Origin: a virus
Lineage: Duplodnaviria > Caudoviricetes
IMG/VR virus record: IMGVR_UViG_3300025934_000014
Span: 32,001-96,000 of that record
DNA length: 64,000 bases
Reading direction: 5' to 3' (one strand)
The stretch's first letter is position 1; each line of letters begins with the position of its first letter. The translations under genes were made by a program, and so were the position numbers. Positions 423 to 48,043 of this stretch are shown piece by piece. The notes beneath the pieces are model-generated. The model saw only the letters and a program-made list of their open reading frames with translations, was not told where the DNA came from and did no database searches.

Positions 423-3400
423 GCGCCGCGCCTGCGCCCCAGCGGGACGCCGTGCCCGGCTTGCAGGCACTGGATCGTCTGCCCACGACCTCGACGGCCT
501 CGATTCCGCTGGCGGTGCGAGCCGCCGACGTGTTCAAGGCAGCGGTGACGCCGCTGAAGGTACCGCTCAACCGCAAGACCACCCAGAACGTGGTACAGCC
601 CGTGCGGCTCGACACGCTGGAGCCGACACGAGAACTGCTGCCCGTGGCCGGGTTGTCGGCGTACGTCGTGAAGCCTCGGCGCGATCCGCCGGACGTGGCG
701 CACGTGGTGATGCGGAGCGGACGCGACCGCTGGGTCATTCAGGAGGGGCACACACGACTGGGCGCGGCCGTCCTGCGCGGCGATGAGACGCTCCCGGCGC
801 GGGTGTGGGAGTTCGAGCAGGCGGACACCGGCGACCTCGTGCCGGTGCTCCGAGGGCTGCACCGGCGCGGCGTCCAGTTGACGCTGCGGGACGCGAAGCC
901 CGGTCTGCATCCCGACTGGCAACTGGGCGAGACGGGGCTGACGCGGCAGATCACGTTCCCGAACCTCCGGGCGTGCGCGACGTTCATCTCGTCGCTGATG
1001 GACGCGGCGAACGACGCGAATCACCACCCCGACGTGCAGAACGACAACTGCGACGTGACGGTCACGTTCATCACCCACGCGACCGGGACCGTGACGGCGA
1101 AGGACTACGCCGGGGCTGAGGAGGCCGACCGGCTCGCAGGCGAAGCCCTGACGGTGCTCTCGGGCGATGACCTCGCGGTGCTGCTGCTCGACTGGCATGA
1201 GGAGTTGCCGAACGGGCGGGACAATGGTAGTATAGACCTCGGCGGTCCCGGCAGCGGAAACTTCGGGCATGCCGGACGGCCCGGCGAAGTGGGTGGGTCG
1301 GCGGATGGTGGCGGCGGCGGCGGAGACACAGTCAGCACGGTTCCTCTGCGCGAGCCGACGCCGCACGAATTCATCGAGGCGCGGAACAAGTCCTCGCGGA
1401 TGGCGTTCCTGTCACCCTTGACCCCGGACGATCTGAAGGGCCAGAAGCTGTACCTGTCGAAGGACGGGACGGTCGGCGGGGCCATGACGCCGGGCGGGGA
1501 CATGGGGAACCTGTTCAACAACGACGGGCCGTCCGGCGCGGCACGCGAAGTGTTGCTCCAGATGATCGCGGATGGGGGCACGACGGCCGACGCGTACGAC
1601 GGGTATCTGCCGTTGCTGTACACCCAGTTCGGGTTGCACGAAACCGGACGCATGGCGTTCAACCCGGAGTACGCGCCGAAGGATTGGAACTACGAGAAGG
1701 ACGATCATCCGGACGTGATCTTCCTCGCACTGGATCAGCACGCCCAGTCGGTCGATGAGATCCGGGAGCGACTGGCGGACGAGTTCCTGTGGCAGACGCC
1801 GAATGAACCGGGAGATAACTACTATGACGACTACGACCAAGGGAAACGAGACGCCACCGCCATCGCCAGCAAGCACGCCATCATCCGACGAAAAGACGCT
1901 GCCGCCAAGCGCACAGAGTCCGGAGGAAAGACGTTTCTTAGCGAAGCTGGAGCGGCTCAAGGGAGCCGACTGGGTCGCGAAGCATGGCGGGTTGGCGCTG
2001 CGGGAGGCGCGAGCACTGGGCGAGATTTAACCTACCGGGACAGGCTCGCACTGCTACTGGGCGACCTTCCCGGTCACGAGTTCCACGGCAACCAGTGGAC
2101 GGATGCGTACCCGGCCGCGTCACGCGACTACCGCATCGAGCCGGTCAAGGGCGACAAGCGTGCCTGCTGCGATCCCGGCGGCGTCAAGACGAAGCTGACC
2201 AAGCCGGAGCAGGGCGCGATTGGCGAGGCCATCGTCGCGGAGTACCTCACCCAGCAGGAGAAGGACCGCGTCTACGCGTCCAACGTCGGGCAACCCAACT
2301 TCCCCATCGACCTCGTCTCGATCAACGACGACGGCAGCGGCGAGGTCATCGAGGTCAAGGCTGGGAGCGCCGGAAACACCACTGGCGCACAGCAGTGGCG
2401 GCTGACCATCGGAGAGCCGGGCAAGGCCGAGAAGGCCATGCTGGCGGATATGTCCGAGGCGGACAAGGCTCGCTGGAACGACAGCAAGGAAGAACAGATT
2501 CTCGTCCGCAAGGAACGGGCGACGAAGCAAATCTCCAAGAACATCGGTCGCCCGGTCAAGGGGCGCACGCTGACGGTGATTCTCAACCCCGACACGCATC
2601 GCGCCGACGTGTACGAGTTCGACGGCTTCCACCAGCGCATCGGCTGGAACAGCGAGGAAGCGAAGGCTGGCTACCGGGGCACGTTCACGTACCGCCAGAA
2701 GCCAGCGGCGCAGCGGAAGGCGGAAGCGACCATCGCCGCACGCCAGTGGTTCGTGCTGTCAGCCGACAAGCCGGACACGTGGACATTCGTGCCGCCGCCC
2801 GGCCTTAACGTACCGCCCGAGGTCGTCGCGGAAGTGCAGCGCGACATCGAGCGCGAGGCGCGACGGTACGAAGCCTCGCTCACCCAGATGTTCCTGAAGA
2901 AATCGGAGACGCATCTCGGGGATGTGCCGGGCCACGAGTTTCACGGGAACCAGTACAGCGAGGGCACGACGGCGCACGCGCCGGGCAAGTCGGTCCAGTT
3001 GCCCGGTCGGTACGACAAGACGAAGGTCGAGAAGCACTCGATCATTGTCACGTCGAAGCACGGCTACATCGCCGCGACGAAGTCGTCCTCGGATCCGGAC
3101 TACTACTGGGTGAACCACATCCGGGTGGACAGCAAGGCCCGAGGCAAGGGTGAGGGCACGGCGCTGTACATCGCGGCGCTCAAGGAAGCGCAGAAGCGCG
3201 GCGGCAAGGGCATCCTGAACGGCGTCCTGCCGGGCCGTGACATCTCCGACGACGCCAAGCGCGTCTGGGCGTCCCTCACGCGCAAGGGACTGACGGAGCC
3301 GATTACGGCGCACGTTCAGAGCGAGGGCAAGGACATCGCGTTCGAGTCTGTCGTGCTCGTGCGATCTGAGCCGAAGGCCACGCACGCATCGACCGCGTGG

Positions 3401-6400
3401 CATCTCGGGGACGTGCCCGGTCATGACTTCCACGGGAATCAGTGGACGCATGAAGGTGGACGCGGCACGCCGCACGGGGCCAAGAAATCGACCAGCGCGG
3501 ATGGCTCCACGGTCGAGAGTTGGTACGACCGGAAATCCCGGTCGTGGATCACGCAGAAGAAGTCGGGCGGCACCGAGGTGGACTCGGAATACAACGGCAC
3601 CAAGGAGGGCATGAACGTCAGTCACGCCACGATGGTGGCGTCGGCGGAGCCTGCGTCGGCGGAGACAGTCACGGACATCCCCGCCGGTGAGAAAGGCGAA
3701 TGCTTCCGCAACGCGGCGCGGTTCGTCCGTCAGCGCGATGGCTACGTGCTTGTCCACGGCAAGGTGACGAACGGCGAGGGGCAGACGTTCGATCACGCGT
3801 GGGCCGAGTCGGCTACGACGGTCGCGGACCCGACCACCGGCGTGGAGATGAACAAGGGCCGGTGGTATGGACTGGTGAAAGCCAAGCCCGAGGCGAAGTA
3901 CACCGCCGAGCACTCGGCCATCAACATGCTGCGAACCCGCAACCACGGGCCGTGGACGGACACGGAGGTCGGTTCGCGCAAGCTGGCGCTCTCCGCGCTG
4001 TATCTCGACTGGGATGAAGGCTCGCATCCGCGTGACGAGAGCGGTCGCTTCGCGGCCGGGTCGGTGTCCGAGTCGATGGCCGCGTTCAAGGCGAAGTATC
4101 CCGAGGTCGCGTCTCGCTACGCACAGCACAGTGGGACAGAGCGCGGCAGCATCGAGGCGCACACGCGCGAGGTGGGCGACACATGGGCGCAGCAACTGAC
4201 GCCCGAGGAGATGTCTGGCATTTCCGCACGGTTCGGGTCCGACGTGGGCAAGCTGATGGCGGCAGCGATTCCGCTGCACGACATCGGGAAGGCCGACGCG
4301 ATTCGCGAGGGCGGGTCACAGCACGAGCACACGATTCCGATTCTGCAACGCGTGCTCCGGCGCGAAGGCTTCGGCGCTCGTGATGTGGCGCTCGCGACCG
4401 AACTGCTGAACCACGACATGATCGGGCCGCTGCTGCGTGCGCATGAGGGCATGCGAGCGACGTACACACCAGAGCAAGTCGCCGCCAAACTGGAAGCGAA
4501 GGCCGAAGCGGTCGGCATGAGTGCGTCCGACTTCGCGACTCTCCAGATGGCGTTCTTCCAAGCGGACGCCTCGTCGTATCCCTTCGTCGCCCGGCAGATG
4601 ACCCGCGAGAAGTCCGGGCGGCACACGTTCGCCGGGTCGAAGGTGCTCGCGCCGATTCACGCGCTGGTGTCGCGGACGATTCGTCTGTCCATCGATCTGG
4701 GCGATCTGCCCGGCCATGAATTCCACGGCAACCAATGGACCGACGGGTCCGGCGTCAGCGGTCGCGAGTTCGCTGGCAACGAGGGCTACGAGTGGCACGA
4801 GCGCCCAGAGATGGAGACGTATGCCCGGAGCTTGCCGCCGCAGGACGTGGAGGCGGTTGGTAATTACGCGGGGTTCTCCTACGCCGATGTGAATCAACTC
4901 CTGCGCGGCACGTTCCAGCCCGACATCGTCAACGAGTTCGTGCGTCCCGCCACGCCCGAGGAGATCGAAGCGTACAAGCCGTCGATGATGTTCCGAAGTG
5001 GTGGCGCGAAGGACTACGAGCCGGACGATCCGACGAACAAGGTGGCTGACGGGCGCATTATTCGTAATGCGTTCACGGTCGATCCTGCCACGGGTGAGAA
5101 AGTCTTTTACAGCATCCAGCGTGCGGTCCCCGATCAGGCACGCATCCGGAATCTGGAAGACATGACGCGGACGATCAACACGATGATTCGTGAGCGAGGG
5201 TACGTTCTTCCAGAGGCGATCACGGTCAATCGTGCGGCCTACGTGCCCGGCCTGTCCTACGACGATCTGAAGGCGATGGAGGGCGGCGTCATGGAGGAGA
5301 AGGGCTTCACCTCCACGATGCTGGGCAATCCCGGCAATCGGCTGGACAGCTACGTGATGGGTGGCAAGTCCGAGAGCCTCTACAAGAGGTACGCGGACAA
5401 GGAAGGCTCGCACGCGATCTACACACGGCAGGACGAGGTCGGTGCGCCGATGCGCATCAAGATCGTTTTGCCTGCTGGCACCAAGGTCGCTCCGGTCGAA
5501 TCGCTGCGGCGGATCGATTACGAGTACCCGAAGATCCAAGACCCGGCGGTGTTCGACCATCCGGAGTGGTTAACGAAGGATGACGGCACGCCGAATGGCC
5601 TGACGGCCAGCGACTACACGAAGACGGACTACACCGCGAAGCCGACCATCAAGACGAATCGGCTGCATGAGACGAACCAACGCAGCGAGGCCGAGATTCT
5701 ACTGGGCAGCGGAGCGCAGTTCCGCGTCGTCAATGTGCAGCGCGGCCCCCGACGCATCACGTCCTCCGATCCGCAGATGAAGGCGCTGGACGTGATCGAC
5801 GTGACGCTGGAATACATCGGCGGCGGCAGCAGCGAGGGGACGCAGAAGAAAGACCTGAGTAGCAAAGTGGAACGCTGTTCCACTTTGCCCTCGCTCGATC
5901 TCGGTGGCCCCGGCAGCGGCAACTTTGGACACGCCGGTCGCCCCGGCGAGATCGGTGGATCGGCCAGCGAGGAATCGAATGCGTCGGCATTCATTCAGCG
6001 CGACACCTTACCGGCCGATGCCGAGGCGCTGGCGACGATTGAAGGCGCTGGTCCGGAGCGGCGGAAGTGGGTCGAGCGGCTGGTGGCCTCACGGAAGGCC
6101 GATGCCGCACTGTACGACGCAGAGGAGGCGCACAAGGCGTCGATCAAACTGGTCGAGCAGCGGTACGGAACGTGGGAGAGCTTGCTGACTCCGTCCGCCA
6201 GCGATGAAGAACTCGGACGACGCGCGGAGGCGCTGGAGGCCAGACGGCGAGCCGACCCGGACTTCCGGGCCACGCTCGACGTGATGGTGGCCGCGTACGA
6301 CGCGAAGGTGGCGGCGGAGAAGGCGTGGAAGGAGCAAGAGTCTCCGATGCGCGTGGAAGTGATCACGAACCTCTCGCACGCCGTGGCAAAGGACATGGGC

Positions 6401-19936: not shown

Positions 19937-21805
19937 ATGGCTGATCTGACGCGCGTCATCCTCTCGACTCCCTCCCTGCTGAGCGCGATCACGCTGAGCG
20001 GCACGGGCAAGCGCAGTTGGATCCAACTCGCGCGTACGGGTTCCTTCACGTCCAGTCGCTACGGCAAGTTCAGCATCACCAAGGACGACCTGTCCTCGAT
20101 GCTGCACAACTTCAAGACCATCACGCCGAAGAACCCGACCGAACTGCCGATTGATTGGGACCACCTCTCGATGGACCCCAAGAAGCCGGGCGACGGGGCG
20201 GCAGCGGCGTGGATGAAGAACCTTGAACTGCGTGACGACGGCGACACGCTCTGGGCCGAGGTCGAGTGGACGCCGAAGGGCATGGACGCGGTCGAGAACA
20301 AGGAGTACCGGTTCATCAGCCCGTCGTTCGTGAAGAACCACACGCACAAGGACGGGTCGAAGATCGGCACGACGTTGCTGGCGGCGGCGATCACGAATCA
20401 TCCGTTCCTTGAAGGGATGACGGCGCTGTCGCTCTACTCGTGCAAGGAAGTGCCGTTCATGGACTTCACCAAGACGGGGACGCTCGATGTGTCCGCGCAC
20501 GAACTGGTGAACCTGTCCACGACGGAAGGCACCAAGGCCGGGATGCGCGTCATGATCGCGCCGGGCAACGCCCGGACGCAGGACGAGATCGGCGCGACAT
20601 TCGAGATTGCCGAAGTGGTCGGGGAAGGGGACGACGCCTTCGTGTCCGTGAAGGATGCGAACGGCATGATCCACAAGTGGTTCCGCGCGACGGAACTGCT
20701 GCCTGCCAGTGCGACACCCGCCAACCCTCAGCATCCGGGCCTGACGCCGGGCGCAGCGCCGACCGTGCCGGTGCCGGGCCTGCCGGGACCGGGGGTGCCG
20801 GGGATCCCCGGTGCGCCGGGCGTGGTGCCGCCACAGGCTCCTATCGCGGCGCTGCCGGGCCAGCAGGGTGTTGCGCCCAACACAGCGGCGGTGGTGAATC
20901 CGACCAACCCGAATACGCCGGTGACGGATCCAGCGGCTCCCGTGACCCCGCAGGTACCGAATCCGGTCGGGGCCAAGCTGGAACAGAAAGCCGCTGGCTC
21001 GCAGGAGAAGGACGGCGCGGACGGCAAGGGCGGCAATCCCTTCGCGAAGGGCGAGGGCGACAAGAAGCCCGACGTGAGCGCGAAGGTCGATAAGGGTGCC
21101 GACGGCGAAGCCACGGTCGTCACCAAATCCGGGACCGACGGCGACGAGTCAAAAGTCGCCGCTGTCGTCAACAACCTGCCGCTTCCAGACGAGTTGAAGC
21201 AAGCCATCGCGGCTGCGTTGGCTGCGGCTGCGGCCAACCCACAGCAGAAGGGAATGCACATGAAGTTCATGCTGAAGAACGACGCCGGTGGCGAGGTGGA
21301 AGTCAGCCTCGAACAGTTGGAAGCCGCTGGCGTCAAGATCGTCAAGGACGGCGAGACGGTCATCCCGAAGGCGGACCTGACCAACTTGCAGTCGCAGGTG
21401 GTGTCGCTGTCTTCACGGCTCGATCAGACCGAGAAGGAAAAGTCCACGGCGGCGATGACGGTCGAACTGAACCGGCTGTCGCAGGGCGCGTTCATCACGA
21501 AGCCCGAGCGCGACTGGGCCGAGAAGATGTGGAAGGACACCGTGGACCTCTCCGGGTTCCGCGAGTGGGCCGCGACCAAGACCACGCCCGTTATCTCGCT
21601 GAACAAGGAGCACGGCTCCGGCGGCAAGGCCGAAGGCGATGCGAAGACCAACGGCGAGCAGGCCGAGGAGAAGCTGATCGAACTGTCGCGGAAGATCGCG
21701 AAGGACGAAGGCATCTCGCTGCGGGACGCGACGATCAAGGCGGGAACGCAGTTGGCGGGTGACGCCGAAGCGTACCGCGAGCGGTTCGCCTCGGCGGACG
21801 CGTAA
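19937..21805 (+). CDS. Mu gpI-like prohead protease fused to scaffold
   Basis: WIQLARTG..PIDWDH..AAAW..LWAEVEWT..EYRFISPSF..AAITNHPFL, then Pro-rich linker and coiled-coil C-terminus. Confidence 0.9.
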   Translation: MADLTRVILSTPSLLSAITLSGTGKRSWIQLARTGSFTSSRYGKFSITKDDLSSMLHNFKTITPKNPTELPIDWDHLSMDPKKPGDGAAAAWMKNLELRDDGDTLWAEVEWTPKGMDAVENKEYRFISPSFVKNHTHKDGSKIGTTLLAAAITNHPFLEGMTALSLYSCKEVPFMDFTKTGTLDVSAHELVNLSTTEGTKAGMRVMIAPGNARTQDEIGATFEIAEVVGEGDDAFVSVKDANGMIHKWFRATELLPASATPANPQHPGLTPGAAPTVPVPGLPGPGVPGIPGAPGVVPPQAPIAALPGQQGVAPNTAAVVNPTNPNTPVTDPAAPVTPQVPNPVGAKLEQKAAGSQEKDGADGKGGNPFAKGEGDKKPDVSAKVDKGADGEATVVTKSGTDGDESKVAAVVNNLPLPDELKQAIAAALAAAAANPQQKGMHMKFMLKNDAGGEVEVSLEQLEAAGVKIVKDGETVIPKADLTNLQSQVVSLSSRLDQTEKEKSTAAMTVELNRLSQGAFITKPERDWAEKMWKDTVDLSGFREWAATKTTPVISLNKEHGSGGKAEGDAKTNGEQAEEKLIELSRKIAKDEGISLRDATIKAGTQLAGDAEAYRERFASADA

Positions 21806-42911: not shown

Positions 42912-45020
42912 ATGTCGCTGCTGCACCCGCGCTTCTTCATCAAGAACTGGCAGTATCTGCCGCCGACCGGTCTGGGTGCGGCCCAGATCGCGGTGCTGCC
43001 TGCTGGTACGTCCTCGATTCGCCTGACATGGACGAACCGACGGCCGGAGTACTACACCAACATCTGGTTCAGCAACGGGCAGTACATCAACTTCGTGGGT
43101 CCGGGCGTTACGACGTACGACGTGATCGGGCTGGCTCCGAATACCAGCTACAGCTTCTACGTGACCCACAGCGACGGACAGGGTCGCTACCTATCAAAGC
43201 CGTCGAACATCGCCTCGGCGGCAACACAGATTGCTTTCAATCCGCCGACCAGCGTGACGGCGACCCAGCGCGGCGATCTCCCGGCTGGCACGTCCACGAT
43301 TCGCCTGACGTGGGCGAACGCGCAGGCGGGTGATCCGATTGAGGTGTTTCGCGACGAAGCCTACGTCGGGCTGCTGGGGCCGGGGACAACGGCGTGGGAT
43401 GACACCGGCCTCGCGCCGAGCAGCACGCATTCGTACTTCCTGCGGCACTACCGCTCGACGGCCAGTGGTGCGTACGACACGCCGAACTCCAATCGGACCA
43501 GCGCCTCGACGCAGGAGAAATTCGATGCCCCGTACGGCCTGACGATCAGCAACGTCCTCTCCTATCCGGCTGGTACGTCGCAGTTGGCGCTGAACTGGGG
43601 TAATGCTCAAGCTGGCGATCAGATTCAGATTTACCGCTACCAGAATTCGTGGAATTACCTGACGACGGTTCCGGCGGGGACCACGTCCTACGTGGACAGC
43701 GGCCTCGCGCCGGGTACGTATTACTACTACTACCTCGTTCACATCAGGAACGGTTACACGTCGGGATTGATTCAGGCTGGACCCGTCTCGACGCACGCAC
43801 CGATGCCGTCGCCGGTGAACGCCTTTGTCTCGAATGTCGGCCCGTCCTCGATGAATCTGAACTGGACGAACGGGTCCGGCTCAGACACCGTCCGTGTGTG
43901 GATCTCCGTCGCTGGTGGTGGCTTCACGCCGTACGACTACGGTGCAGGGACGGCGGGACTGGCGTTCACGGGCCTCTCGGCTGGCACCAGCTACACGTTT
44001 GCCGTGCGGCATGTCCGTTACGGCACGGAGTCCACCGATCCGCCCGGTCAGTCGAACTGGGTCGGCACGACGACGCCGTTCCCGGCTCCGGCCGCGCCGT
44101 ACAACCTGCAAGTCGGCGTGCCGCACGATCAGGCACTGATCGTGTACTGGGCGAACGGTGACGGCGGGGCGCAGACCGAGGTGTACCTCAATGGTGGCGG
44201 TGTTGCGACGGTTGGACCGGGCGTCACGCAGTACCAGATTAACGGCCTGACGCGCTGTACGAACTACACGATTCAGTTGCGTGCCCTGAAGAACGGTGTG
44301 TACTCCGGCTTCGTCAGCATCGTCGGGCGACCGCGCATGTACGTTTCCGGCGGCTACGCGCAGAACGACGGGGCGACCGAGTATCACTGGTACTATCAAG
44401 GCGAGTTCGACATCACGCTGCAAGTCCCCGGACAGATCAACTACTCCGGCTTCGGGGCCGGTGGGTACGGTGGGCAGGGCAGTCCCGATGACGGCGTGTC
44501 GAATACAGGTGGCGGCGGCGGTGGCAGCGGCGGCGCGTTTCTCCAGTACGACAACGTCGAACCGAATGGCACCTACCACGTGGTCACGGGGTGGCTGGGT
44601 TACGCGGGTGCGACCACCTACCGCGACGACATCGCCTTCAACGGTGGCTGGGGCGAGTGGGGACTCAACGAGCGCGGCGGCAACGGCAGCTATTCTGGCG
44701 GCGGCGCGGGGAGCGCCTATCCGCAGTACGGCGGCGGCGCAGGGTTTCCCGGTGGGCCGAATAACAGTTGCGGTGGCGGTGGCGGTGGTGGCGCACGTGG
44801 CGGCGGTGCCAGTTCGCAAAGCGGTGTCGGTGCGCCGGGCGGCGGCGGCTTCGGGTTGCCGATCTTTGGCAATGTTGGGTTCGGTGGACAAGGTGGCCGT
44901 GGTCCGGGGTCCGGGGCGAATGCGACCTACTGGGGGTCCGCTGGTGCGGGTGGTGGCCCTGATGGCGGCGGCGGCGGCGGGGCGACGAACGGTGGCTTTA
45001 TGGTGTGGTTCCCGATTTAA
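42912..45020 (+). CDS. FN3-repeat/Gly-rich tail protein, paralog of the C-terminal half of 36093
   Basis: Five FN3-like repeats; shared NSCGGGGG..PIFG..GG.GGRGPGSG.NAT.WG..GGF..W.P end. Confidence 0.8.
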   Translation: MSLLHPRFFIKNWQYLPPTGLGAAQIAVLPAGTSSIRLTWTNRRPEYYTNIWFSNGQYINFVGPGVTTYDVIGLAPNTSYSFYVTHSDGQGRYLSKPSNIASAATQIAFNPPTSVTATQRGDLPAGTSTIRLTWANAQAGDPIEVFRDEAYVGLLGPGTTAWDDTGLAPSSTHSYFLRHYRSTASGAYDTPNSNRTSASTQEKFDAPYGLTISNVLSYPAGTSQLALNWGNAQAGDQIQIYRYQNSWNYLTTVPAGTTSYVDSGLAPGTYYYYYLVHIRNGYTSGLIQAGPVSTHAPMPSPVNAFVSNVGPSSMNLNWTNGSGSDTVRVWISVAGGGFTPYDYGAGTAGLAFTGLSAGTSYTFAVRHVRYGTESTDPPGQSNWVGTTTPFPAPAAPYNLQVGVPHDQALIVYWANGDGGAQTEVYLNGGGVATVGPGVTQYQINGLTRCTNYTIQLRALKNGVYSGFVSIVGRPRMYVSGGYAQNDGATEYHWYYQGEFDITLQVPGQINYSGFGAGGYGGQGSPDDGVSNTGGGGGGSGGAFLQYDNVEPNGTYHVVTGWLGYAGATTYRDDIAFNGGWGEWGLNERGGNGSYSGGGAGSAYPQYGGGAGFPGGPNNSCGGGGGGGARGGGASSQSGVGAPGGGGFGLPIFGNVGFGGQGGRGPGSGANATYWGSAGAGGGPDGGGGGGATNGGFMVWFPI

Positions 45021-46224: not shown

Positions 46225-46473
46225 ATGCCCCTGACGACGATGAGTGTGTTGCCCGATCTGGGAGATCGCCGGTTTGGAAGTCTGGCGCTGGGTTACGACA
46301 AGATCATGCAGATCAGGGTGGAGCACAGTGCGCTTGCCGCGCTCGCCGCTGCCGCGTGCGAATGCGAAGTCGAAGACCTGACGATCCTCAAGATCCAGCA
46401 AGTCACGGCCGCGCTCGCGAGCGCAAAGAATGCCGCGACGGACGCCGCTGGTGTTGATGGCTCCACGATGTGA
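46225..46473 (+). CDS. Hypothetical protein
   Basis: GGAGACGACGATG start motif. Confidence 0.6.
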   Translation: MPLTTMSVLPDLGDRRFGSLALGYDKIMQIRVEHSALAALAAAACECEVEDLTILKIQQVTAALASAKNAATDAAGVDGSTM

Positions 46474-46490
46474 CCAGTAGTTCTCCGGTG

Positions 46491-46519
46491 TAGACATTAT
46501 CAATCGCCTGTGCCACGCT
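46491..46519 (+). promoter_or_regulatory. Promoter directly upstream of GGY-NN array 1
   Basis: TAGACA-17 nt-CACGCT with TG extended -10; predicted start site falls in the first pentamers. Confidence 0.5.
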
Positions 46520-46750
46520 GGCGAGCCGGGGCCGGGTAAGGATAGGCGGGGCACGGTTTGCTTCGGTCTGGTGGGGTTAGGTGAGGCCGGGCATGGCGAG
46601 GCATGGCTTGGTTTGGCGAGGCAGGGCTTGACATGGTGCGGTGAGGCAGGGTTGGGTTGTGTCGGGCACGGTAGGTGTCGGGTCGGGCACGGTTGGGTCC
46701 GGCGAGGCATGGTGTGGCCGGGTTCGGTTCGGCCGGGTAGGGTACGGTTT
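46520..46750 (+). ncRNA. GGY-NN pentamer array 1 (46 units), candidate guide RNA
   Basis: Manual parse: 31 units, 1 extra nt, 15 units; 40/46 begin exactly with GGC/GGT; last two bases vary freely. Confidence 0.8.
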
Positions 46751-46782
46751 TCTATTACGACGACGAAGGCGGAGACGACGGA

Positions 46783-47397
46783 ATGACAACAGCAACAGCA
46801 ATTGGGCCAGTCACGAACGGTGCGCTGGCGACTCTCAAGTTTGAACTCCCATACGTGGCGAGCGTGAGACTGGTCGGCGTGGCCGACATCCTGTTCCACC
46901 GGTGGAACGTGGAAGGGGTTGCATCGAAGGCGCTCGCGAAGAAGGGATCGGCAGCGAAGAAGACCGACGACATCGAGAGCTATGTCTATCGCAACGACGC
47001 CGAGGAAATCTGCATCCCCGGTGAGTACGTGCGGCAGGCGATCATCAACGCGGCGAAGTACCGTCCGGACCCGCGCAGCCCTCGCAAGTCTGCGATGGAC
47101 CTGTTCAAGGCAGGCGTCGTCTCACTCACGGACCTCGCCTCGACGGGCGTCACGAAGTGGGACTTTGAAGACAAGCGGCGCGTGCAGGTTCAGCGTGCAG
47201 GTATCACGCGTGTGCGTCCGGCGCTGAAGCAGGGGTGGGCGATTCAGGTCGAACTGCTGGTGAATCTGCCGGAGTACATCGCGCCTGCGGATCTGCTTGA
47301 AGTGATCGTCAACGCGGGTCGCCTGATCGGACTGGGCGACTTCCGGCCGACGTACGGTCGGTTCTCAGTCGTCAGTTTCGAGTGCCTTCAGGGCTGA
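46783..47397 (+). CDS. Solo Cas7/RAMP-like RNA-binding protein (204 aa)
   Basis: VRLVGVADILFH (beta1), ICIPGEYVRQAI (RAMP IPGxx helix), RVRP, GW..QVEL, C-terminal Gly loop AGRLIGLGDFRPTYGRFSV. Confidence 0.75.
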   Translation: MTTATAIGPVTNGALATLKFELPYVASVRLVGVADILFHRWNVEGVASKALAKKGSAAKKTDDIESYVYRNDAEEICIPGEYVRQAIINAAKYRPDPRSPRKSAMDLFKAGVVSLTDLASTGVTKWDFEDKRRVQVQRAGITRVRPALKQGWAIQVELLVNLPEYIAPADLLEVIVNAGRLIGLGDFRPTYGRFSVVSFECLQG

Positions 47398-48015
47398 GTG
47401 CGGTGGGCCTTGGTCGGGTTTGGCGGGGCGAGGCATGGTTTGGCTCGCTCTGGTCAGGCTGGGCAAGGCGAGGCGAGGTCGGGTGAGATACGGCTTGGTG
47501 CGGCCTGCCTTGGCGAGGTCGGGCGTGGCGAGGTCCGGTGGGGTTGTGTCTGTCCGGGTGTGGCGAGGCGTGGCGTGGCACGGTCAGGCACGGTGAGGCA
47601 CGGTCTGGCTGGGCGAGGTTAGGCGAGGCCGGGCGCGGTTCGGTATGGCGCGGCAGGCTCTACGGCGCGGTGCTTCAGGCACGGCGCGGCAGGTTCTGCC
47701 GTGAGGTCTGGTTGGGCGGGGTTCGGCGTGGCGAGGCTGGCTACGGCCCGGTCAGGCGCGGTGCGGTTTGGTCAGGCATTGGCGCGGCACGGCAAGGTCA
47801 GGTTAGGTCGGGTTTGGCGAGGCATGGCTGGGGCGTGGCAGGGCGTGGCATTGGCGAGGCGTGATGTTGGTCGGGCTTGGTGAGGCAAGGTCCGGTTTGC
47901 CAAGGTCAGGCGTCGGTCGGGTTTGGTAGTGTCAGGCTAGGCAAGGCAGCGGCTTGGCGCGGCGCGGCTCGCTACGGCGTGGATTGGTTTGCCCCGGCGC
48001 GGTATGGCGTGGTCT
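47392..48015 (+). ncRNA. GGY-NN pentamer array 2 (~120 units), candidate guide RNA(s)
   Basis: Unbroken 5-nt phase 47392-47656 (53 units), then several 1-2 nt phase slips; ends at the next promoter's -35 box. Confidence 0.8.
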
Positions 48016-48043
48016 TGACATCGCCGTCGATTGGCATTACCAT
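48015..48043 (+). promoter_or_regulatory. Early promoter
   Basis: TTGACA-17-TACCAT. Confidence 0.8.

What the first reader, a model, noticed from the sequence alone, without database searches (positions are those of the whole stretch)
46491..48015. Solo Cas7/RAMP-like gene between two GGY-NN pentamer arrays: candidate RNA-guided system that is not CRISPR
Seen: a 204-aa gene (46783-47397) flanked by ~230 nt and ~620 nt of strictly 5-nt-periodic DNA in which positions 1-3 are GGC/GGT and positions 4-5 vary freely. Both arrays are on the gene's strand, a promoter sits just before array 1, and the window has no other cas genes or CRISPR repeats. Established: the IPGxx-helix and C-terminal G-x-G..R..GRF loop are RAMP/Cas7 hallmarks, and Cas7 polymerises on RNA with a fixed nucleotide step. 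Inference: one subunit binds each GGY while the NN dinucleotides carry information, spelling a gapped target (for example in a competing phage, or for transcriptional silencing). From memory, and unverified, this matches a recently reported phage system called VIPR, so it may be a new instance rather than wholly undescribed.
Basis: partly seen in the sequence, partly recalled or inferred. Interest (0 to 1): 0.96.

Follow-up and report, generated by a model that had tools for sequence, protein, structure and literature searches.

The report
Mobile phage VIPR cassette targeting rivals
This is a genuine example of the recently published phage VIPR system (a small Cas7-like protein plus five-letter-repeat guide RNAs), and two of its guides decode to genes of rival phages, one of them the alternative version of the very DNA slot that the system itself occupies.

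Summary
A 204-aa gene (46783-47397) lies between two same-strand GGY-NN arrays: 46520-46750 and 47402-48015, 167 units in all, 144 of them perfect. These are the only such arrays in the complete 122-kb phage genome.

The protein has a Csm3/Cas7-type RAMP fold (VIA-align Z 12). By sequence it matches only one solved structure, SUSP1 Vipr (profile E 5.6e-18), and it keeps the residues that read GGY. All 14 related viral loci carry the same arrays. The locus is therefore a member of the VIPR kind published in 2026, not something undescribed. This scan has also logged many VIPR loci on other DNA.

Features specific to this locus:
- It is a 1.75-kb stand-alone cassette with no vap gene, long tail-less arrays and no sigma-70-type promoter called before array 1.
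- Sibling phages 98% identical in the flanks carry unrelated genes in the same slot.
- Decoded by the published 1-nt-skip rule, the first 15 units match the siblings' and cousins' allele at the cassette junction at 28/30. The phage's own linked allele scores 20/30, and shuffled guides reach at most 22.
- A second guide matches a rival phage's head-protease gene (10 perfect units, 26/32).
- The cassette left end (immune allele plus array 1) is 100% identical in a different phage background.

Targets of the remaining guides are unknown. No RNA or binding data exist.

The parts
46225..46473 (+). Small late gene of unknown function. It is 82 aa from ATG 46225 (the ORF lister starts it at GTG 46204, 89 aa). 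From about codon 13 onward it is the 'immune' allele that belongs to the cassette. The site homologous to the guide-A target is 46261-46305.
   Evidence: No Pfam or PHROG family. Sibling alleles are 66-69% identical while neighbouring proteins are 94-100% identical. The own allele scores 20/30 against guide A.
46265..48010 (+). The swapped VIPR cassette (about 1.75 kb): the 3' part of the small gene, array 1, vipr and array 2.
   Evidence: DNA identity to siblings L019/L020 is 98% up to 46264 and resumes at 48011/48028. In between, the siblings carry unrelated genes and no arrays. Contig L025, from another background, is 100% identical from about 46250 to its end at 46629.
46520..46750 (+). 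Array 1: 46 GGY-NN units with one 1-nt slip at 46675.
46520..46594 (+). Guide A: units 1-15 of array 1, decoding to E-G-R-K-Y-G-T-L-S-L-G-Y-D-R-I.
   Evidence: 28/30 NN matches, in frame with the skipped base on the wobble position, to L019:1402-1446, L020:1474-1518, L021:572-616 and L022:757-801. 3000 shuffled guides scored at most 22/30.
46783..47397 (+). vipr: a 204-aa stand-alone RAMP protein.
   Evidence: PDB 36pp SUSP1 Vipr is the only sequence hit (E 7.9e-8 for the single sequence, 5.6e-18 for the profile). PHROG 4652. Csm3-like fold. GGY-binding residues are conserved.
47402..47661 (+). Array 2a: about 52 in-phase units, including a run of 20 perfect units (47557-47656).
47636..47712 (+). 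Irregular, out-of-phase segment inside array 2 that folds into a long hairpin. It is a candidate separator or handle between sub-arrays.
   Evidence: Minimum free energy -39.5 kcal/mol, z -3.2, 1 of 200 shuffles folds as well. Function is inferred only.
47700..48015 (+). Array 2b: about 65 units in short runs separated by six 1-nt slips (47780, 47831, 47852, 47868, 47914, 47950).
47700..47779 (+). Guide B: a 16-unit run bounded by the hairpin segment and a 1-nt slip. Units 2-11 decode to L-W-G-S-V-E-W-T-P-H.
   Evidence: The exact 9-unit seed has only two hits in the whole viral collection (L023 and L024, the same phage). Both lie in frame at the homologous site of a head-protease homolog. There are 10 consecutive perfect units and 26/32 overall.
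20246..20293 (+). The phage's own head-maturation-protease gene at the site homologous to the guide-B target. It reads LWAEVEWTP, where the target reads LWGSVEWTP.
   Evidence: 18/32 overall, 15/18 in the seed region, in frame.
48015..48043 (+). Promoter-like site (TTGACA-17-TACCAT) at the right border. It lies in DNA shared with the siblings, so it is not part of the cassette.
   Evidence: It is the first of 10 same-type sites, all on the + strand and all downstream. Homology to L020 resumes at 48011.

Best explanation
The locus is a stand-alone VIPR system carried as a mobile 1.75-kb cassette in a 122-kb, 65% GC uncultured phage.

Proposed mechanism:
1. Both arrays are transcribed on the gene strand, probably by read-through of the late operon (inferred).
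2. Vipr protomers bind one per GGY-NN unit and hide the GGY bases, using H39, E81, R145, D186, F187 and R188. This is inferred from homology to the SUSP1 structure.
3. The exposed NN dinucleotides pair with double-stranded DNA while skipping every third base. This is the published rule. Here two guides decode cleanly under it.
4. Binding silences the bound gene (published for type II VIPR, not tested here).

Predicted targets:
- Guide A, the first 15 units of array 1, is aimed at the allele of a small late gene found in sibling and cousin phages that lack the cassette. The target starts exactly where their sequence departs from this phage's.
- The cassette brings its own diverged allele of that gene, which is not recognised. 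Weapon and immunity are therefore linked and move together.
- Guide B is aimed at a conserved motif of the head-maturation protease gene of a different phage. This phage's own protease differs there by two codons.
- The remaining guides, roughly ten or more, have unknown targets.
For: Family membership:
- Sequence.
- Fold.
- GGY-contact residues aligned to SUSP1 Vipr: with bioRxiv 10.64898/2026.04.26.720927.
- Arrays flank the homolog on its own strand in 14 of 14 IMG/VR loci and in deposited phage DSL-LC04, and essentially nowhere else in those loci.
- No CRISPR array, Cas1 or Rfam family.

Cassette:
- Sharp homology breaks against the siblings.
- None of the window's neighbouring genes occurs in the 14 related vipr loci, and those loci share no adjacent accessory gene.
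- An identical cassette left end (immune allele plus array 1) occurs in another genetic background.

Guide A:
- 28/30 in four contigs from four samples, representing two alleles.
- The two alleles differ from each other at wobble positions but keep the NN positions.
- One mismatch is TC against AGT, both serine.
- The own allele scores 20/30; the shuffled maximum is 22/30.

Guide B.

No self-target scores above the shuffled null, as published for other VIPR systems.
Against: - There are no expression, processing, RNP or binding data for this locus.
- Only 2 of at least a dozen possible guides have a predicted target.
- Guide A's 3' end has no visible mark in the array, so guide boundaries are unknown.
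- Guide B was selected because it resembles the phage's own protease, and at the DNA level 15/18 matches to the own genome are expected by chance. Its support rests on the external hits.
- No sigma-70-type promoter was found before array 1.
- The function of the guide-A target gene is unknown, so the benefit of silencing it cannot be stated.
- The clade lacks the 3' tail/pseudoknot that caps type II vrRNAs, so assembly or length control may differ.
Confidence: 0.85

Rival explanations
1. RNA-guided homing or marker exclusion. Binding of the guide-A complex at the junction of the cassette-less allele stalls replication or transcription there. This promotes repair from the VIPR-carrying genome during co-infection. 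The cassette, with its linked immune allele, would then be copied into siblings, as homing endonucleases do in T-even phages.
For: - The guide-A target begins within about 3 nt of the homology break, the position a homing enzyme would recognise.
- The immune allele is part of the cassette.
- The cassette left end (about 380 nt) is 100% identical in a second background whose upstream DNA is diverged, which shows recent lateral transfer.
Against: - The cassette encodes no nuclease.
- Published VIPR activity of this minimal kind is binding and silencing, not cutting.
- Lateral transfer by ordinary recombination between co-infecting phages explains without any drive.
- Guide B targets an unrelated phage, which fits plain competition.
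Confidence: 0.1
2. The guides regulate the phage's own genes or host genes (temporal control or host takeover) and are not aimed at rival phages.
For: - The arrays sit at the boundary between the late and the promoter-rich regions.
- Most guides have no identified target.
Against: - No guide window matches the phage's own genome better than shuffled guides do (17/20 in both).
- Both decoded targets are phage genes for which the own allele is the poorer match.
- The one bacterial hit (Mycobacterium, L018) lies off-frame in an ordinary lipoprotein gene and was judged to be chance.
Confidence: 0.04
3. The pentamer tracts are structural DNA with no guide role (two-tetrad G-quadruplex tracts, recombination hotspots or slippage repeats), and the RAMP protein does something unrelated.
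For: - GG every 5 nt could form weak G-quadruplexes.
- The arrays lie at a recombination hotspot.
Against: - Slippage would make neighbouring units identical, yet NN uses all 16 dinucleotides.
- The arrays are always on the vipr strand and always adjacent to vipr, in unrelated phages.
- Two stretches decode in frame to real genes.
- The protein keeps the GGY-reading residues.
Confidence: 0.01

Closest known systems
Type II VIPR of Escherichia phage SUSP1 and the Pseudomonas fulva prophage (bioRxiv 10.64898/2026.04.26.720920, .720927 and 10.64898/2026.10.15.759431; PDB 36pp)
   Same: - A homologous ~200-aa Vipr RAMP protein with the same GGY-contact residues.
- GGY-NN arrays on both sides of the gene, on its strand.
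- Phage-borne, with no CRISPR array and no cas genes.
- Guides decode by the 1-nt-skip rule to coding sequences of rival mobile elements, with the skipped base on the wobble position.
- No self-targeting.
   Different: - Only 24% protein identity.
- No vap gene: SUSP1 has vap1 directly after vipr.
- SUSP1 has four discrete vrRNAs of 5-13 detected units, each with spacing and a 3' tail. Here there are two near-continuous arrays of 46 and about 120 units with no conserved tail.
- The target here is the alternative allele at the cassette's own locus in sibling phages, not a satellite or a prophage regulator.
VIPR 'staggered' vrRNA arrays and stand-alone vipr loci, mentioned in the discovery preprint (text and fig. 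S18 legend)
   Same: Continuous arrays in which neighbouring guides abut, with 1-nt offsets. A lone vipr gene without a partner gene.
   Different: The figure and the type table are not held, so I could not check whether this clade is one of the seven published types. Only guide B's ends coincide with phase breaks. Guide A's 3' end does not.
VIPR-null SUSP1-like phages with solo vrRNAs that target relatives' vipr genes (10.64898/2026.10.15.759431)
   Same: Near-identical sibling phages differ at the VIPR locus. Guides discriminate between self and sibling alleles.
   Different: The direction is reversed. Here the VIPR-carrying phage targets the cassette-lacking siblings, at the junction of the slot, and the immune allele is physically part of the cassette.
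CRISPR-Cas Cas7-family backbone subunits (Csm3, Cmr4, type I, IV and VII Cas7)
   Same: RRM core, G-loop and thumb. The best structural matches are 6ae2_B and 6s6b_I (Z 12.0), and the top 28 rows are all CRISPR RAMPs.
   Different: There is no sequence-level match to any CRISPR RAMP in the PDB. There are no CRISPR repeats, no Cas1 and no other cas genes. The RNA step is 5 nt, not 6 nt.
Homing endonucleases and marker exclusion in T-even phages (from general knowledge, not searched here)
   Same: A selfish cassette that recognises the cassette-less allele at its own insertion site, while its own allele is immune.
   Different: There is no nuclease here, recognition would be RNA-guided, and no conversion has been shown. 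This is a resemblance in logic only.

Membership tests
VIPR system (Vipr + vrRNA) | Vipr protein: a small single-RRM RAMP homologous to the published Vipr family | tested here: met
   phmmer E 7.9e-8 and family-profile E 5.6e-18 to PDB 36pp 'SUSP1 Vipr protein'. The profile match covers nearly the full length, and 36pp is the only PDB sequence hit. tblastn reaches phiSUSP1 itself.
VIPR system (Vipr + vrRNA) | Residues that read the GGY motif (SUSP1 H17, E71, R138, D177, W178, R179) | tested here: met
   They align to H39, E81, R145, D186, F187 (still aromatic) and R188. R145 is invariant, and D186 and R188 are nearly invariant, in the family alignments. K33, the skip-base contact, aligns to A52 next to K53/K54, which is inconclusive.
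VIPR system (Vipr + vrRNA) | Tandem GGY-NN (YNNGG) pentamer repeats next to vipr, on its strand, with hypervariable NN | tested here: met
   167 units, 144 of them exact. All 16 NN dinucleotides are used. The arrays occur only at this locus in 122 kb. The same holds in 14 of 14 related loci.
VIPR system (Vipr + vrRNA) | No CRISPR array and no other cas genes; viral context | tested here: met
   No Rfam family, no CRISPR-like tandem repeat and no Cas1. The record is a 122-kb virus genome with head, tail and replication genes.
VIPR system (Vipr + vrRNA) | Guides match natural targets by the 1-nt-skip rule (NN-x-NN), typically in coding DNA with x on the wobble position, and do not match self | tested here: met
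   Guide A scores 28/30 in four contigs, in frame. Guide B has 10 perfect units and 26/32, in frame. The own genome scores no better than shuffled guides. This is in silico only, for two guides.
VIPR system (Vipr + vrRNA) | vrRNAs are expressed, co-purify with Vipr, and the complex binds and silences DNA | not testable with these tools
   This needs small-RNA sequencing, pull-down and reporter assays.
Type II VIPR (SUSP1 / P. fulva) | A vap1 DNA-binding partner gene directly after vipr | tested here: not met
   The cassette boundaries leave room for vipr only. The 80-aa gene after array 2 is also present in VIPR-less siblings. No adjacent gene is shared among the related loci.
Type II VIPR (SUSP1 / P. 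fulva) | Discrete vrRNAs of 9-16 repeats, each capped by a conserved 3' tail or pseudoknot | tested here: not met
   The arrays are continuous and have no repeated non-pentamer element. The one hairpin segment occurs once.
CRISPR-Cas (class 1) effector module | A Cas7-fold RAMP together with a repeat-spacer array and other cas genes | tested here: not met
   The fold is met. The repeat-spacer array and Cas1 are absent, and vipr is the only RAMP copy in the genome.

The most novel reading that the evidence does not exclude
The cassette may be an RNA-guided selfish element. Guide A recognises the cassette-less allele at the cassette's own insertion junction, while the linked immune allele protects carriers. 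Binding would then exclude or convert sibling genomes during co-infection, a nuclease-free, RNA-programmed analogue of intron/intein homing. The many other guides could be a catalogue of rival cassettes and rival phages.
Probability: 0.12. Interest if true: 0.85.

Novelty: new member of a known kind. Interest (0 to 1): 0.5.

Why it matters
VIPR itself is already described, so this locus does not reveal a new kind of system. Its value is that it is a clean natural experiment.

- The same phage backbone exists with and without the cassette. This delimits a minimal functional unit: vipr plus arrays, with no partner gene.
- It shows what one guide is for: recognising the rival occupant of the same genomic slot.
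- The recognised gene's immune allele is inherited with the weapon, and the cassette left end (immune allele plus array 1) turns up unchanged in another lineage.
- This makes the idea of linked weapon-plus-immunity cassettes, and possibly RNA-guided allele exclusion or homing, directly testable with short synthetic targets.

The clade is also large, with more than 7,000 homologs, nearly all unnamed. One deposited phage (DSL-LC04) has its vipr gene annotated as an HTH regulator, so annotation pipelines are missing these systems.

Tried and rejected
1. Exact 10-unit gapped patterns from three clean stretches found no hit in the viral collection.
2. Seed-and-extend searches with decoded guide peptides found nothing in three cases. 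These were the 53-unit run and array 1 against viral contigs and the 20-unit perfect run against metagenomes.
3. The genome-collection scan gave one hit in Mycobacterium sp. M26, with 10 perfect units. I rejected it because:
   - the real gene there is a DUF3558 lipoprotein on the other strand;
   - the skipped base is not on the wobble position in that gene's frame;
   - the neighbourhood is ordinary chromosome;
   - a 9-unit seed hit is expected by chance in 596 Gb.
4. Cross-targeting between this phage and the 14 related vipr loci, in both directions, gave nothing above the shuffled null. A patchy 16-17/20 match in L007 and in the phage's own genome was not homologous.
5. I rejected an antisense match next to the protease site because it is out of frame and its quality is at chance level. 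I also rejected a 15/18 hit of array-1 units on L023.
6. The search for a vap gene found none.
7. Searches for hammerhead ribozymes or other RNA families in the arrays found none.
8. No sigma-70-type promoter was called before array 1.
9. No more siblings were found in IMG/VR through the flanking 147-aa protein. Two Logan contigs gave gene maps but no DNA.
10. The VIPR type (I-VII) could not be assigned, because the figures and supplementary tables are not held.

Full report
**Observation**

The 204-aa ORF at 46783-47397 lies between two tracts with a 5-nt rhythm on the same strand.
- Lag-5 self-match is 0.56 and 0.51 in the tracts, against 0.26 for the whole window. Only 46526-46750 and 47401-48025 exceed 0.5.
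- A register-aware parse gives 167 pentamers, of which 144 are exact GGY. C occurs 81 times and T 63 times at position 3, and all 16 dinucleotides occur at positions 4-5. Background GGY frequency is 0.055 per position.
- The arrays are not strictly periodic. About one unit in seven is degenerate. There are seven 1-nt slips. One out-of-phase segment (47662-47699) folds, with its flanks, into a long hairpin (-39.5 kcal/mol, z -3.2).
- No other such array exists on either strand of the window or of the whole 122,115-bp virus genome.

**The protein**

- Pfam has nothing. PHROG 4652 (function unknown) matches at 3e-18.
- Against PDB sequences the only real hit is 36pp, 'SUSP1 Vipr protein'. The E-value is 7.9e-8 with the single sequence, and 5.6e-18 over nearly the full length with a 64-sequence family profile.
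- An AlphaFold model (pLDDT 94.8) is most similar to Csm3 and Cmr subunits. Foldseek gives E about 1e-6. VIA-align gives Z 12.0, and its top 28 rows are all CRISPR RAMPs.
- The cryo-EM paper (10.64898/2026.04.26.720927) names the SUSP1 residues that hold G1, G2 and Y3. In a direct alignment with the phiSUSP1 gene they map as H17→H39, E71→E81, R138→R145, D177→D186, W178→F187 and R179→R188.
- The family is large: 7,328 hits in the 90% clusters and 1,156 representatives at 50% identity. Almost all are unnamed.

**Association with arrays**

All 14 IMG/VR loci that encode a 60-71% identical homolog have GGY-NN arrays beside it, on its strand. Elsewhere in about 10 kb per locus there is only one 6-unit chance run. 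The deposited phage DSL-LC04 (59% identity, gene annotated as an HTH regulator) has arrays too. None of the window's neighbouring genes recurs in those loci, and the loci share no adjacent accessory gene.

**What is known**

VIPR was published in 2026.
- Vipr protomers polymerise one per GGY-NN unit.
- The NN bases pair with double-stranded DNA while every third target base is skipped.
- Natural targets are rival mobile elements.
- Seven types exist, including stand-alone genes and 'staggered' arrays.

This locus meets every sequence-level criterion of the kind. It is not type II, because it has no vap and no tailed, discrete vrRNAs. It has no CRISPR array, Cas1 or Rfam family.

**Targets: negative results**

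- Sliding guides do not match the phage's own genome better than shuffled guides.
- Direct pattern scans and several seed-and-extend scans found nothing.
- One bacterial hit was rejected as chance.

**Targets: guide A**

The metagenome scan with decoded array 1 returned two contigs, L019 and L020.
- They are sibling phages. Flanking proteins are 94-100% identical. DNA is 98% identical up to window 46264 and again from 48011/48028.
- Between those points the siblings carry two unknown genes and no vipr or arrays.
- Units 1-15 of array 1 match the siblings at 28/30 NN positions, in frame, starting at the homology break. The one mismatched unit is TC against AGT, both serine.
- More distant cousins (L021, L022) carry a third allele. 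It also scores 28/30, with different mismatches and different wobble bases.
- The phage's own allele scores 20/30. Shuffled guides reach at most 22/30 in 3,000 trials.
- A 588-nt contig from another sample (L025) has cousin-type sequence upstream. From about 46250 it is 100% identical to the window, through the immune allele and all of array 1 that it covers. The cassette therefore moves between lineages together with its immune allele.

**Targets: guide B**

- Comparing decoded guides with the phage's own six-frame proteome recovered guide A against its own allele. It also flagged the 16-unit run at 47700-47779 against the phage's head-maturation-protease gene.
- The exact 9-unit pattern of that guide has only two hits in the whole viral collection, and both are from one 67% GC phage. 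They lie in frame at the homologous site of a protease homolog (35% identity).
- There are 10 consecutive perfect units and 26/32 overall. The own allele differs by two codons.
- This guide is bounded by the hairpin segment and a 1-nt slip. Guide A's 3' end has no such mark.

**Transcription**

A recurrent promoter type, TTGACW-N17-ATTAYCAT, occurs 10 times, all on the + strand and all from 48015 onward. The first copy is at the right border, in DNA shared with the siblings. The arrays are therefore probably read through from the late operon, but this is an inference.

**Verdict**

This is a real VIPR locus and a new member of a published kind. This scan has also logged hundreds of VIPR-like notes on other DNA, one of them with the same weapon-beside-escape-allele layout. 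What is shown:
- the anatomy of the locus;
- family membership of the protein;
- the cassette boundaries;
- the lateral transfer;
- two in-silico targets.

What is inferred: expression, filament assembly, silencing, and any homing-like behaviour.

Noticed in passing
window 48015, 48583, 54030, 57200, 62805, 68556 (plus 69516, 70381, 82723 and 83008 in window numbering, beyond the window's end): A recurrent promoter-like motif, TTGACW-N16-18-(ATT)TAYCAT, often with GGGAACA in the spacer. There are 10 copies, all on the + strand and none on the - strand, and all lie in the replication/early half starting at the right border of the VIPR cassette.
   Followed up: partly
window 46206, 46759, 48066 and about 10 other gene starts in the genome: A leader motif, GACGACGGAGGNGACGACG, immediately before start codons. 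There are 32 overlapping + strand hits and 5 - strand hits, against 0.5 expected in shuffles. It is probably an extended ribosome-binding or leader element typical of this phage.
   Followed up: partly
genome ends (G000 1-127 and 121989-122115; outside the window): The last ~127 bases repeat the first ~127. This is the overlap expected from a circular k=127 assembly, so the genome is probably complete although IMG/VR labels it linear.
   Followed up: partly
L016 (Phage DSL-LC04, OR003939.1) 2688-3594: A deposited, annotated phage has a 59% identical vipr homolog labelled 'helix-turn-helix transcriptional regulator', with unannotated GGY-NN arrays just upstream.
   Followed up: partly
L001 about 4905-4935, and the equivalent places in L003-L006: A conserved GC-rich hairpin (GGGCCGCG-loop-CGCGGCCC) lies between array 1 and the vipr start in several relatives. 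This phage lacks it. It may be an array-end handle or a processing site.
   Followed up: no
L019 1597-3822 and L020 1669-3727: The rival cassettes in the same slot hold two genes of about 290 aa with no Pfam or PHROG family. The pair is inverted and only 70-78% similar in patches between the two siblings, so the slot is a hotspot with at least three occupants.
   Followed up: partly
window 42912-45020: A 702-aa protein just upstream has repeated fibronectin-type-III-like segments and a very glycine-rich C-terminal third. It is probably a tail fibre or decoration protein.
   Followed up: no
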